Shown here piece after piece: positions 29,965 through 64,000 of a DNA stretch of 64,000 bases. Made by a program: the position numbers and the translations under genes. Every line of letters begins with the position of its first letter. Within the stretch, counting starts at the first letter, position 1. The DNA comes from Octopus sinensis (taxonomy: Eukaryota): contig NW_021836139.1 of assembly GCF_006345805.1 (NCBI RefSeq), positions 62,001 to 126,000 on the forward strand, in the 5' to 3' direction. The notes beneath the pieces were generated by a model. That model saw only the letters and a program-made list of their open reading frames with translations. It searched no databases and had not been told where the DNA came from.

Positions 29965-30445
29965 AATAAATTGCTAAGGGAAAAAAATCTCCAAAGGCAT
30001 ACATACATACATCAGCACCAGGAGAACTAAAATTACGCCCTATTGTTGCTGGACCTTCCTGTGAAAAACATCGATTAAGTTACTTCATGGACATTCTCCT
30101 GAAACCATTTCTAAAACAAATCAAGAATCATATTAGAGATGACTTAGATATGTTAAATCCCCTTCCAGAAAGATGCATATAAGGTGCTTCTAAAGACATG
30201 AACATGACATACATAGGGGAGACATCTAGGAGCATTGCGGAACGACTAAATGAACATCTGAGACAACATGACAACAAAATGCAGTTCTCCATACTCTACC
30301 AACATGCCAAAGACCAACATGGAGGAAGCTTGGGTTAACTTGACATCCGCATCTTATCCAAGAACCCAAAAGATACAACACTCAAACAAATACGGGAGTA
30401 CGTCCTTATAAATGAAACTTCAACAATACTAAATAGGAAATATAC
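29965..30445 (+). pseudogene. Internally deleted Penelope-like element (RT motif fused to GIY-YIG C-terminus)
   Basis: One frame with stops: LKLRPIVAGPSCEKHRLSYFMDILLKPFL... then YIGETSRSIAERLNEHL...HAKDQHGG...IREYVLINE...LNRK. Confidence 0.85.
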
Positions 30446-30934
30446 ATAGTTGATATCATACACCCCATACCCACAGTTTACACAGGTAGAGTAGAATAGT
30501 TTGTGGGCTATTATGTAGATAGATATATGTATGTATATGTGGTTGGGTGAGTGTATGTATATATGTGTATATGCACATGTATGTAAGCATATAGATGTAC
30601 ATAGGTTACATGAACAGACATGCACACATATGCAAATGGAGACTGAAACACATGACCTTATACACACACACACTTTACTTCACACAAGGACACATATGGA
30701 GACACATGTCCACATATATGGAGATGCACATCCATACATACAAACACAGTACATAGTTGCAAAACACACACACGCAGGGAGACAGAGATGCATACATATA
30801 CAAACACACGCATACACACATACATAAAAAATACACAAACACAGACATACAAGCACATGAATATGCAGAATACATACAGATGCACACATATACATATATA
30901 CATATGCATACAAACACAAATATGCATACTCACA

Positions 30935-31198
30935 CATACATGCATACATACATACATGCATACATCCATCCATCCATCCATCCATCCATACATACATACA
31001 TACATAATACATACATACATACATACATACATGCATGCATGCATGCATACATACATACATACATACATACATACATACATACATACAACATACATACATA
31101 CAACATACATACATACATACATGCATGCATGCATGCATACATACATACATACATACATACATACATACATACATACATACATACATACATACATGCAT
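30935..31198. repeat. (TACA)n/(TCCA)n microsatellite
   Basis: Direct reading; source of the many MYVC/HTYI ORFs. Confidence 0.95.
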
Positions 31199-31249
31199 TC
31201 ATAGGCACACACAGACCCACACACATGCGCACAAACAAGCAAAAAATAA

Positions 31250-31468
31250 CGTACTGTAAATAACGGACAGAGTCAAGACTATTGAAAAGGTTGCGAGACG
31301 CAACGAAAATTTTATGAAAATAAAAATGAGAAATAAGTGGAAATTTTACCGGTGAGTGTGTTAAATTATAAGGCACAAAAAGAAAATGACTCTCCCCAGA
31401 CACAACAGAATATGCTTCAATACACGAACTCATATAAAGAATCTTGCAAACCAAATCCTAAAACGAAA
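31250..31468 (+). mobile_element. Short repeat family C with U3-A8 hammerhead-like motif (31279-31315)
   Basis: Homologous to 63622-63881. CTA-TTGAAAA-G-GTTGCG-AGA-CGCAAC-GAAAA-TTT-TAT. Confidence 0.7.
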
Positions 31469-31701
31469 TATATATACATAAATATAATTTGAATAGAGGA
31501 TATGTTAACTTCGTGAAGGGATGGTTGCATCCAAGGAAATATTGGTTCAATACCTAGCATTTTGGGGTAATGAAATTCCTTTACAACAATAGGTATATAT
31601 AAAGCATACATTTAATATCCATTTAAAAGAAGAAAATAGAGTTTAGGAAGTTAATAATTGTTTATTCTTAACTTCCTTATCGCCATTTTCTTTTCTCCTT
31701 T

Positions 31702-41445: not shown

Positions 41446-41753
41446 GATAACACCTACGCAAATTCCATAAACAAACCTTTCAATAGAAATATTCTCCTGA
41501 ATTGAACTGCAACTGCTAGCCGTCACTGACCATTCAAAATACGACCATCAAGGCAATCCCAAATTTTTCCACCCCCTCTCCTCATCAACCTTCTTCTTCT
41601 ACCCTACCAAGAATTCACAACGGCCTCGAACACACAAGTGCAAACAAGGGAGACAGAGAAAGGCAGAATGCCACTTATATTTGAACACTATACAAATATT
41701 CCTTTAAAAAAACTTTTCTTTTAATTTTTCTAAATTTAATTATTTAATCGTTA

Positions 41754-41791
41754 CAGTTGAAAAGGTCTCAAAATGACCGAAACCGGTACTG
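41754..41791 (+). ncRNA. Minimal type-I hammerhead ribozyme-like motif in PLE pseudo-LTR, U3-A8 core
   Basis: CAG-TTGAAAA-GGTC-TCAAAAT-GACC-GAAAC-CG-GTA-CTG. The mirror copy at 39540-39576 (-) lacks one core A. Confidence 0.75.
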
Positions 41792-42257
41792 AAATGTTCT
41801 TTATAAAATTATTTTAGCATTTTCTATTTTGACTTGTTTTTTCATATATATCAACTCGTGTGTTCCTTTTCACCCATATATATATATATATATACATATA
41901 TACGACGGGCTTCTTTCAGTTTCCGTCTACCAAATCCACTCACAAAGCCTTGGTCGGCCCGAGGCTATAGTAGAAGACACTTGCCCAAGGTGCCAAGCAG
42001 TGGGACTGAACCCGGAACTATGGGGTTCGTAAGCTAGCTACTTACCACACAGCTACTCCTATGCCTATATATTCATATATACACACATACATAATTTTAT
42101 TACAATGTTACTATTATTTCACGTTACAGATTTTCAGTCACAAGAGGAACTGGAACGCGAAACTCCGAGTAGCAACTCACTTTTGATATTTATTAGTTTC
42201 TCCCTGTTCATTGTGTTTCCCATCTGTGGACGCCTCAAGACCATCATATGCGTGTGT

Positions 42258-63082: not shown

Positions 63083-63621
63083 AAAACAGAAAATTATAGT
63101 GCGACTGGATTACATTCATTCGCACGTCCTATAGTCTAGGAAAAGCTAAGAAAGCCTGATTTAGATGAACGAATGGTTTATGTGAGTCATGCTAACCCTG
63201 TACAGGGATTCCATTTGCAAGATGATTATAACTGAGTTATAATCAAGACCCAGTTCTCTGTCCCACTTGTAGATTATAGTTCTGAAGGGAGTTTAAGAGC
63301 TCACAAATGAATGCTTTTCCCTGCCATCAGGGAATTGTCTATGCTCAAATCGGAGAAAAGTAGTTGATCAGAGCAATTCACAATATACCAAAAGTAAAAT
63401 TATGGATACACAAGAGATGCAGTAGATCACAAGCGGGTTGTCAGGAAAATAAATATTTGTATTTAGCAGATGCACAGGAGAGGTTTGATGAAGCAGCATC
63501 AATGAAATAGATCTTTTCAACTGGTGTAAGTGTTCTCTCGAAGTAGTTGATAGCATCTATTACTTTGGTGACTAGATAGAAATGGAGGTAGTTTCTTTTT
63601 TGATATCATAGAAGGTAAAAT

Positions 63622-63881
63622 TCTGTTGTGTCTGGGGAGAGTCAATTTCTTTTTGTGCCTTATAATGTAACACACTCACCGGTACGGTAAAACTTCCATT
63701 TATTTCTTATTATTATTTTCCTAAAATTTTCGTTGCGTCTTGCAACCTTTTCAATAGTAAGTGTATTAAATTATAAGGCACAAAAAGAAAATGACTCCCC
63801 CCTCCGCCCCCAGACACAACAGAATATGCTTCAACACACGAACTCACATAAAGAATCTTGCAAACCAAATCCAAAAACGAA
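63622..63881 (+). mobile_element. Family C insertion with inverted 5' part and 12-bp TSD
   Basis: AGAAGGTAAAAT at 63610-63621 and 63882-63893; hammerhead-like motif at 63721-63757 (-). Confidence 0.8.
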
Positions 63882-64000
63882 AGAAGGTAAAATGTTATTA
63901 CTTCTATTGGCAACAAAGGGATTTTTCTCTTTGAGTGGAAGGTACGAAGGCACAACATGGATAGTGATTGCATAGGATTTATGGATTTTGAAAAAGATAA

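What the first reader, a model, noticed from the sequence alone, without database searches (positions are those of the whole stretch)
63610..63893. Third U3-A8 family: ~260-bp ORF-less insertion with 12-bp TSD and 5' inversion
Seen: AGAAGGTAAAAT flanks both sides. Relative to the 31250-31468 copy, 63760-63881 is the 3' part in sense and 63622-63759 is the 5' part inverted, with ~60 nt present in both arms as a fold-back. The inverted part holds CTA-TTGAAAA-G-GTTGC(AAGAC)GCAAC-GAAAA-TTT-TAG. Inference: one target-primed reverse-transcription event of a short ribozyme-bearing RNA.
Basis: partly seen in the sequence, partly recalled or inferred. Interest (0 to 1): 0.72.

Follow-up and report, generated by a model that had tools for sequence, protein, structure and literature searches.

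The report
Truncated Penelope-like insertion with inverted arm
This 260-base stretch is an ordinary broken-off end piece of a Penelope-like jumping gene in what is probably an octopus genome, sitting as two head-to-head arms between a duplicated 12-base target that a related species still carries uninterrupted, and its hammerhead-like RNA motif is a published core variant that is only predicted to cut.

Summary
An exact 12-nt repeat, AGAAGGTAAAAT, flanks 260 bp made of an inverted arm (63622-63759) and a direct arm (63757-63881) that share about 60 nt.

The empty-site test succeeded. In three runs of a related organism, one contig each joins window 63609 to 63882. It skips exactly 272 nt, and 12 letters fit either side.

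The family is not a short ORF-less RNA. It is the 3' end of an abundant autonomous Penelope-like element (PLE: reverse transcriptase plus C-terminal GIY-YIG endonuclease).

This architecture is the published PLE insertion footprint: variable 5' truncation, an adjacent inverted arm, a short target-site duplication (TSD) and a "tail" on one arm only. It recurs here. In 16 of 18 composite insertions the tail-less arm ends at family position 150-164.

The motif fits the published minimal PLE hammerhead descriptor with the known U3-A8 core variant. However, Rfam finds no ribozyme, covariation inside the family is weak, and cleavage is untested.

Verdict: a real single PLE insertion event and a new member of a known kind. 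Interest is low to moderate.

The parts
63610..63621 (.). Left copy of the 12-bp target-site duplication, AGAAGGTAAAAT
   Evidence: D2 (100% repeat); organism C contigs hold this 12-mer once (joint 'skips 272, both 12').
63622..63759 (-). Inverted, tail-less arm, corresponding to family positions about 29-160/162 of the PLE 3' terminal 219 nt. Its outer end shares a 2-nt (AT) microhomology with the TSD.
63721..63757 (-). Minimal hammerhead-like motif with U3-A8 core: CUA / UUGAAAA / G / GUUGC-AAGAC-GCAAC / GAAA / AUUU / UAG. It lies only in the inverted arm.
   Evidence: Sequence. The minimum-free-energy fold gives the two-helix layout, z = -2.2. Descriptor scan: 3 hits in the window, 0 in 50 shuffles. 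No Rfam hit.
63757..63881 (+). Direct arm, corresponding to family positions about 103-219, reaching the element's 3' end ...AAAACGAA(A). It carries a 9-nt C-rich insertion near 63799-63807 relative to other copies.
63826..63881 (+). The 56-nt 'tail': the 3'-terminal segment present in the direct arm but absent from the inverted arm
   Evidence: (I2 ends at 63825). The published PLE 'tail' is described in PMC3846280 and PMC8557442.
63882..63893 (.). Right copy of the 12-bp target-site duplication
30170..31470 (+). It holds the last 92 codons of the GIY-YIG ORF (30171-30446), a CA/CATA-rich 3' UTR with an (ATAC)n array at 30890-31203, and the 219-nt terminus with the same motif at about 31278-31314.
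   Evidence: (tblastn 77% identity, E = 1.5e-42; blastn to the L012 and L019 UTRs)

Best explanation
Window 63622-63881 is a heavily 5'-truncated copy of the 3' end of an autonomous Penelope-like retroelement, present as an inverted arm plus a direct arm between a 12-bp target-site duplication, and it was likely made in one integration event by two target-primed reverse transcriptions. Shown: the family identity, the architecture, the TSD, and an uninterrupted site in a related organism. Inferred: the element's GIY-YIG endonuclease would nick the two target strands about 12 bp apart. The bottom-strand 3' end would prime cDNA at the RNA's 3' end (...ACGAAA/UA, family position 219), and that cDNA stopped at about position 103. 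The top-strand 3' end (...AAAAT) would anneal by 2 nt to an internal site (...CAGAAUAU, about position 160) and prime a second cDNA, which ran to about position 29. The two cDNA ends were then joined with at most 2 nt of overlap. The internal start site would explain why the inverted arm lacks the last 56 nt (the 'tail'). The hammerhead-like U3-A8 motif was carried along as part of the 3' UTR and lies in only one arm. It is predicted, not shown, to be a weak dimer-dependent ribozyme, and nothing indicates it acted in this event.
For: Identity:
- Long copies run without a break from the 219-nt terminus through about 600-700 nt of UTR into an ORF with YVDD, a CX4CxxC linker and GIY-YIG.
- Pfam GIY-YIG scores 28.8 bits against a cut-off of 22.6.
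- The window's own second copy holds 92 endonuclease codons.
- The best named relative is an Octopus vulgaris RT-domain protein at 60% identity.

Single event:
- Exact 12-nt TSD.
- In 3 runs from 3 studies of organism C, one contig each of 1914-1919 nt joins L054 1228 to 1501 (window 63609 to 63882). It skips 272 nt, with 12 letters fitting both sides and 255 or more nt on the shorter side.
- Contigs of organisms A and B cross both junctions into the insert.

Recurrence:
- 8 of 30 BLAST-chosen loci have an inverted partial copy at the 5' side.
- 9 (-,+) motif pairs less than 70 nt apart, and no (+,-) pair, appear among the first 100 listed motif places.
- Of 18 composites, 11 have exact flanking repeats of 9-14 nt. 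In 16 the tail-less arm ends at position 150-164. In 10 of the 11 the repeat overlaps the arm by 2-6 nt.

Two independent cDNAs rather than a copy of one arm:
- The tail-less arm is the longer one in the window, L084 and L089.
- 4 of 13 ORF-linked copies end directly at position 156-164.
- Both start sites read GAA(A)UA.

Literature passages read:
- An inverted 5'-truncated copy, a tail at one end, short TSDs and (TA)n bias are typical of PLEs (PMC8557442; PMC3846280).
Against: - No step of the mechanism was observed. Nick positions, priming and joining are all inferred from footprints.
- The two arms of the window copy are no more alike (90.9% over 55 nt) than random family members (mean about 90%). 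This gives no positive sign of a shared template.
- Arkhipova et al. 2013 interpret such inverted structures as self-priming at palindromes, possibly on antisense templates. Here 7 of 18 composites do join at the palindrome AGTCAAGACT (position 20-24). That sample was partly selected for short spacing.
- The window TSD starts with AG, not the TA seen after the 3' end in 28 of 30 loci.
- 7 of 18 composites lacked an exact repeat of 9 nt or more.
- The RT domain itself did not reach Pfam's cut-off in the fragments tested.
Confidence: 0.7

Rival explanations
1. One cDNA with a template switch or snap-back. A single first-strand cDNA primed at the 3' end turns round, by self-priming at a palindrome or by jumping to an antisense or second template. 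It then copies back toward the 3' region and stops about 56-66 nt short, which gives the inverted arm and the one-sided tail.
For: Arkhipova et al. 2013 propose self-priming from palindromes at inverted junctions (PMC3846280). In this family 7 of 18 composites join at position 20-24 inside the near-palindrome AGTCAAGACT. Identical motif spacings of 22 nt (3 of 9 pairs) and 31 nt (2 of 9 pairs) recur.
Against: In the window copy the inverted arm holds positions 29-102, which the direct arm lacks. It therefore cannot be a copy of that arm unless 74 bp were deleted later. The same holds for L084. ORF-linked copies end at position 156-164 without any partner. The TSD overlaps the arm's outer end by 2-6 nt, as expected for priming by the target end.
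Confidence: 0.2
2. One reading: a short, ORF-less, ribozyme-bearing RNA (retrozyme- or SINE-like) was the template, mobilised in trans by a PLE.
For: This copy is ORF-less. It carries a min-HHR-like motif. Earlier notes of this scan report retrozyme-like U3-A8 families elsewhere in the genome (unchecked leads).
Against: 5' ends of copies are scattered rather than fixed. Copies run continuously into the PLE ORF, including the reference copy in this window. No unit-length tandem or defined short master was seen among 30 + 12 + 12 loci.
Confidence: 0.07
3. Two independent events: one family copy inserted, then a second copy landed head to head beside or inside it. Alternatively, a DNA-level fold-back (MITE-like) transposon.
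For: The family is very abundant (at least 5150 motif copies), so nested hits do occur. The structure is a strong hairpin.
Against: A single 12-bp TSD brackets the whole composite, and the empty site lacks both arms at once. The same tailed plus tail-less pairing recurs in 16 of 18 composites. The inverted repeat does not reach the right end, because the 56-nt tail is unpaired. The family is also continuous with a retroelement ORF.
Confidence: 0.03

Closest known systems
Inverted-pLTR insertions of endonuclease-containing Penelope-like elements, e.g. Pen2a_Av of Adineta vaga (Arkhipova et al. 2013, PMC3846280; passages read) and the general PLE layout in Craig et al. 2021 (PMC8557442; passages read)
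   Same: 5' truncation. An inverted 5'-truncated copy directly at the 5' side. A short TSD around the whole unit (8-10 bp there, 9-14 bp here). A 'tail' present on one arm only, with the inverted repeat correspondingly shorter. Validation by an empty site. TA-rich targets. A C-terminal GIY-YIG domain with a CX2-5CxxC linker.
   Different: The tail here is about 56-66 nt, against 31 bp or 30-40 bp in the papers. No direct (tandem) pLTR was seen in the three long copies examined. This copy is an extreme miniature (260 bp, no ORF). The PLE clade (Neptune, Nematis or other) was not determined.
Minimal type I hammerheads (min-HHR) of metazoan PLEs, U3-A8 variant of Schistosoma mansoni Cercyon elements (Cervera and De la Pena 2014, PMC4209133; passages read)
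   Same: Core UUGAAAA ... GAAA with U3-A8 in place of C3-G8. [quoted passage not shown] A G10.1-C11.1 pair. A short helix I. No real helix III, with palindromic AAUU at 15.1-16.1. Location in the terminal repeat region of a PLE. Frequent occurrence as pairs on opposite strands.
   Different: Helix II is 5 bp, against 7-8 bp in the main S. mansoni families. Helix I is only 3 bp. No Rfam model detects the motif. Cleavage is untested here, and was low even for the published examples.
L1 'twin priming' 5' inversions
   Same: One retrotransposition event gives an inverted 5' part and a direct 3' part inside one TSD. The second primer is the other target strand, annealing by microhomology.
   Different: In L1 the internal priming site varies and the two parts barely overlap. 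Here the internal site is confined to about 15 nt (position 150-164), and the arms overlap by 60 to about 200 nt. The enzyme is a GIY-YIG PLE, not an APE-type LINE.
[quoted passage not shown]
   Same: Both carry a type I hammerhead-like motif and are suspected to be mobilised by PLE enzymes.
   Different: This family has no fixed non-coding unit or tandem units. It is the 3' UTR of the autonomous element itself.

Membership tests
Penelope-like element (EN+, C-terminal GIY-YIG) | GIY-YIG endonuclease domain at the C-terminus of the single ORF | tested here: met
   Pfam PF01541 scores 28.8 bits (cut-off 22.6) at residues 331-424 of a 428-aa open frame that ends at the 3' UTR. It scores 22.6 and 23.3 bits in two other copies. 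There are 8017 first-look candidates in the genome.
Penelope-like element (EN+, C-terminal GIY-YIG) | PLE-type reverse transcriptase upstream of the endonuclease | tested here: inconclusive
   A YVDD-containing frame lies directly upstream. Relatives of 770-1100 aa match at E down to 1e-142, and some carry PF00078. Pfam RVT_1 did not reach its cut-off in the fragments or in the nearest homolog. No clade phylogeny was made.
Penelope-like element (EN+, C-terminal GIY-YIG) | [quoted passage not shown] | tested here: met
   Read directly in the translations: C-TNDN-C-MV-C before VVYSIRC...GAC...YIGET. The criterion is taken from PMC8557442 passages.
Penelope-like element (EN+, C-terminal GIY-YIG) | Insertion footprint: variable 5' truncation, adjacent inverted 5'-truncated copy, one-sided tail, short TSD | tested here: met
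   For this copy.
Penelope-like element (EN+, C-terminal GIY-YIG) | Bias for TA or (TA)n targets | tested here: met
   TA follows the ...GAAA end in 28 of 30 loci, and several run on as (TA)n (read by eye). The window copy itself is an exception: its TSD starts with AG.
Hammerhead ribozyme, minimal PLE type (min-HHR), U3-A8 variant | Core sequence (C/U)3-U-G-A-N-(G/A)8-A ... G12-A-A with a 3-8 Watson-Crick pair, G10.1-C11.1, helix II, H17 | tested here: met
   The sequence reads UUGAAAA-G-GUUGC/GCAAC-GAAA-AUUU-UAG. My descriptor scan gives 3 hits in 64 kb against 0 in 50 shuffles. The features are listed in PMC4209133.
Hammerhead ribozyme, minimal PLE type (min-HHR), U3-A8 variant | Match to curated hammerhead covariance models | tested here: not met
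   No Rfam family at gathering score in the window. No ribozyme at E up to 10 in 63500-64000. None at E up to 1 in 17.5 kb of long copies. Minimal and variant-core forms are expected to escape these models.
Hammerhead ribozyme, minimal PLE type (min-HHR), U3-A8 variant | Evolutionary maintenance of pairing (covariation at 3-8 and in helices) | tested here: inconclusive
   Genome counts of the 16-mer: U3-A8 5150, U3-G8 211, C3-A8 256, C3-G8 18, against about 9.6 doubles expected if the positions were independent. Diverged subfamily copies keep the stem GUUGC/GCAAC and vary the loop, but show no compensatory stem change. An unrelated repeat at 41756 has the same core with a different helix II.
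Hammerhead ribozyme, minimal PLE type (min-HHR), U3-A8 variant | Self-cleavage at H17 | not testable with these tools
In vitro activity of the published min-HHRs was low and dimer-dependent.
Retrozyme or short non-autonomous ribozyme repeat | Fixed-length non-coding unit with its own 5' end, often tandem, without ORF-linked members | tested here: not met
   5' ends are scattered. Copies are continuous with the PLE ORF.
Fold-back or MITE-type DNA transposon | Terminal inverted repeats reaching both ends of the insert | tested here: not met
   The right arm extends 56 nt beyond the inverted repeat. The family is a retroelement terminus.

The most novel reading that the evidence does not exclude
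The footprints of this family amount to a rule for the still undefined Penelope integration cycle. There are two staggered nicks about 11-12 bp apart. Each nick primes its own cDNA: one at the RNA 3' end, the other at a fixed internal GAAUAU site about 56-66 nt upstream, through 2-6 nt of target microhomology. The two cDNAs preferentially join at a palindrome. This would explain at sequence level both the one-sided 'tail' and the inverted pseudo-LTRs of PLEs, and it would make a genome with thousands of young copies plus sister-species empty sites a natural test bed.
Probability: 0.25. Interest if true: 0.5.

Novelty: new member of a known kind. Interest (0 to 1): 0.27.

Why it matters
It settles what this stretch is: an ordinary truncated Penelope-like insertion, not a new class of short ribozyme RNA. 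The cross-species empty site shows that the inverted-plus-direct PLE structure here arose in a single event.

Its wider value is modest. Specialists describe the PLE transposition cycle as still undefined (Craig et al. 2021). Families like this one are abundant and fairly young, have a confined internal start site, and can be checked against sister species. They could be mined to constrain that mechanism.

The U3-A8 hammerhead-like motif adds a probable cephalopod example to a variant already published in flatworm PLEs.

Tried and rejected
- Rfam found nothing useful. The gathering-score scan of the whole window gave 0 hits. The permissive scan of 63500-64000 gave only sub-threshold miRNA-hairpin and thermometer matches that reflect the fold-back. 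The permissive scan of three long copies gave only low-complexity miRNA-like hits.
- I first judged the motif not to be a hammerhead, because C3 and G8 are missing. I revised this after earlier notes pointed to the U3-A8 variant and I read the passages in PMC4209133.
- The own genome holds no empty site. Contig C12609 is an identical duplicate of the window's contig and also carries the insert, so there is no empty allele in the assembly.
- Organism D (run X19) could not be scored. Its contigs stop before both junctions, so the state of the site is undetermined. For organism E (X20) only the right junction is covered.
- Arm-to-arm identity as a test for a shared template was uninformative for the window copy (90.9% against about 90% background).
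- Looking up earlier findings near this window and by sequence returned nothing.
- Literature searches for hammerhead + octopus + Penelope and for Penelope-like + twin priming found no paper describing this family or this mechanism in cephalopods. These searches cover only the held library.
- ORF listing around the insert showed nothing that looks coding. I did not test whether the site lies in an intron.

Full report
**1. Observation**

The sequence is as described. AGAAGGTAAAAT occurs at 63610-63621 and at 63882-63893, 100% identical (D2).

The 260 bp between the two copies have two parts. BLAST against the copy at 31230-31480 places 63620-63758 in inverted orientation (90.6% over 139 nt). 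It places 63757-63882 in direct orientation (88.1% over 126 nt) (alignment). The arms share about 60-65 nt: I1 is 46 nt at 89%, and I2 is 18 nt at 100%. As single-stranded DNA the insert folds back with z = -8.9. The quoted motif lies on the minus strand, 63757 down to 63721.

**2. What the family is**

The 219-nt query has at least 2198 first-look candidates in the window's own 2.72-Gb genome. The 40 scored matches are 94-100% identical. The motif's exact 16-mer occurs 5150 times, against 0 for the reversed control.

The 5' ends of 30 fetched copies are scattered, as expected for 5' truncation. The 3' end is fixed at ...CCAAAAACGAAA and is followed by TA in 28 of 30 loci.

Long copies run upstream through a CA/CATA-rich UTR of about 600-700 nt into an ORF. 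The ORF ends with a CX4CxxC linker and a GIY-YIG domain:
- translations;
- Pfam PF01541 at 22.6-28.8 bits against a cut-off of 22.6.

A YVDD reverse-transcriptase frame lies further upstream, broken by frameshifts in the three long copies examined. The nearest named relative is an Octopus vulgaris RT-domain protein at 60% identity, so the host is probably an octopus.

It contains the last 92 endonuclease codons. The (ATAC)n array before it is part of the element's UTR. The family is therefore the 3' terminus of an autonomous Penelope-like element (PLE), not a short ORF-less RNA.

**3. Empty site**

The own assembly gives no empty allele. Contig C12609 is an identical duplicate that also carries the insert.

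Public runs gave the answer (runs found).
- **Organism C (empty).** Three runs from three studies were laid. In each, one contig of 1914-1919 nt aligns to L054 900-1228 and continues directly at 1501-1984. The joint reads "skips 272, both 12" with 255 or more nt on the shorter side.
- **Coordinates.** L054 position 1229 is window 63610 and position 1501 is window 63882. The skipped piece is exactly the 260-bp insert plus one copy of the 12-mer.
- **Divergence.** The flanks differ by about 7% in substitutions: 24 of 329 letters on one side and 36 of 484 on the other.
- **Organisms A and B (filled).** Contigs cross both junctions into the insert with 0-1 differences. Organism A may be the assembly's own source.
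- **Organism E.** Only the right junction is covered.
- **Organism D.** Undetermined.

This shows a single insertion that brought both arms and duplicated 12 bp. It happened after the split from organism C.

**4. The architecture is the family's habit and matches the published PLE footprint**

- Eight of 30 BLAST-chosen loci have an inverted partial copy at the 5' side.
- Among the first 100 listed motif places, 9 pairs lie less than 70 nt apart. All are in (-,+) order.
- Two near-full-length copies have an inverted 600-700-nt piece of their own 3' UTR directly upstream of the ORF.

I analysed 18 composites: 7 from the first set, 10 fetched because two motifs lay close together, and the window copy. 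Three rows were dropped:
- L023, because its arm is too short;
- L090, because both arms reach the 3' end and are 100% identical;
- L091, because of odd arm ends.

Results for the 18:
- 11 have exact flanking repeats of 9-14 nt. Others have imperfect repeats by eye.
- In 16 the shorter-ended arm stops at family position 150-164, which is 56-66 nt before the true 3' end.
- In 10 of the 11 the repeat overlaps that arm's end by 2-6 nt.

Passages read in Craig et al. 2021 (PMC8557442) and Arkhipova et al. 2013 (PMC3846280) describe the same features for PLEs:
- 5' truncation;
- an inverted 5'-truncated copy adjacent at the 5' end;
- TSDs of 8-10 bp;
- a 30-40-bp "tail" at one end only, with the inverted repeat correspondingly shorter;
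- (TA)n bias.

They also call the underlying mechanism undefined.

**5. Mechanism (inferred)**

I favour two primers, for four reasons.
- The tail-less arm is longer than the tailed arm in the window copy (position 29 against 103), in L084 and in L089.
- ORF-linked copies end directly at position 156-164 in 4 of 13 cases.
- Both start sites read GAA(A)UA.
- Microhomology with the TSD's 3' end is what priming by the target end predicts.

In this model the bottom-strand nick primes at the RNA 3' end. The top-strand nick, about 12 bp away, primes at the internal site. The two cDNAs are then joined.

The rival is a single cDNA that turns round at a palindrome, which is the self-priming idea of Arkhipova et al. 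2013. It has support: 7 of 18 composites join at position 20-24 within the near-palindrome AGTCAAGACT, and motif spacings of 22 and 31 nt recur. That sample was partly selected for short spacing. A palindrome would equally favour annealing of two independent cDNA ends.

The rival cannot produce the window copy without a later 74-bp deletion. Arm-to-arm identity (93.2% within composites against 89.8% between them; window 90.9%) does not discriminate between the models.

**6. The hammerhead question**

"U3-A8" denotes replacement of the C3-G8 core pair. I learned this from earlier notes of this scan and checked it in Cervera and De la Pena 2014 (PMC4209133, passages).

That paper describes:
- a conserved G10.1-C11.1 pair;
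- a short helix I;
- palindromic positions 15.2-16.2;
- dimer-dependent and low activity in vitro;
- a U3-A8 variant in S. mansoni Cercyon elements with about 1300 hits;
- pairs of motifs on opposite strands.

The motif here fits point by point: CUA / U3UGAAA8A / G / G10.1UUGC-AAGAC-GCAAC11.1 / GAAA / AUU-U17 / UAG. Supporting results:
- RNAfold returns the corresponding two-helix layout, z = -2.2.
- My descriptor finds 3 hits in the window against 0 in 50 shuffles. One of the three is in an unrelated repeat at 41756, with a different helix II and an ACCGGU palindrome.

Results against a functional ribozyme:
- No Rfam model matches.
- Helix I is only 3 bp.
- Maintenance of pairing is weak. Genome counts are U3-A8 5150, U3-G8 211, C3-A8 256 and C3-G8 18, against about 9.6 doubles expected.
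- Diverged subfamily copies keep the stem and vary the loop but show no compensatory change.

Cleavage is untested. In this insertion the motif sits only in the inverted arm, and nothing links it to the event.

**7. Comparison, novelty and verdict**

The stretch works like, and passes the tested membership features of, an EN+ PLE insertion with an inverted arm. Its motif is a member-by-descriptor of the published U3-A8 min-HHR class.

It fails the tests for a retrozyme-type short repeat and for a fold-back DNA transposon. It resembles L1 twin priming (recalled, not read) in logic. It differs in having a confined internal start site and long arm overlap.

Searches of the held library found no description of this family or of a PLE two-primer model in cephalopods. 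PLEs in Octopus are annotated in general terms (PMC13282606, passages).

The finding is real but ordinary: a new member of a known kind. It has some value as a clean, empty-site-verified example and as raw material for working out PLE integration.

Noticed in passing
window 41748-41795 (+): A second min-HHR-like motif with the same U3-A8 core (UUGAAAA) but a different helix II (GGUC/GACC) and an ACCGGU palindrome at helix III.
   Followed up: partly
G000 contigs C12609 (145146-180928) and C12610 (window): Two contigs are 100% identical over every stretch compared (the 31250 copy, both flanks of the 63610 insert, and the same spacing). This looks like a duplicated contig or haplotig in the assembly.
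   Followed up: partly
L090 (G000:C1:261900-263400): A composite whose two arms both reach the 3' end (position 14-219). The arms are 100% identical to each other but only about 82% identical to the query, and lie about 195 nt apart. This is an exception to the tailed plus tail-less rule. It could be a recent inverted duplication, gene conversion or an assembly artefact.
   Followed up: no
L007 oriented 1-1191 and 1718-2098; also L001, L003, L004, L013, L023, L026: Next to several PLE copies lie a tandem repeat of about 183 bp and another abundant repeat of about 380 bp, which recurs downstream of the PLE 3' end in several loci at 85-90% identity. Its family was not identified.
   Followed up: no
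window 63524-63577 and 63389-63442: Parts of the left flank of the insert are themselves repeats. Contig depth there is hundreds of times that of neighbouring sequence, and there are about 30 weak matches elsewhere in the genome.
   Followed up: no
P0034: A 1392-aa Octopus bimaculoides 'cadherin domain-containing protein' matches 11% of the PLE query at 74% identity. This is probably a gene model that absorbed a PLE fragment.
   Followed up: no
L045, L058, L060, L061: ORF-linked copies of the PLE whose direct 3' end stops at family position 156-164, so they lack the 56-nt tail, and are followed by unrelated, often TA-rich DNA. The family therefore has two alternative 3' termini.
   Followed up: partly
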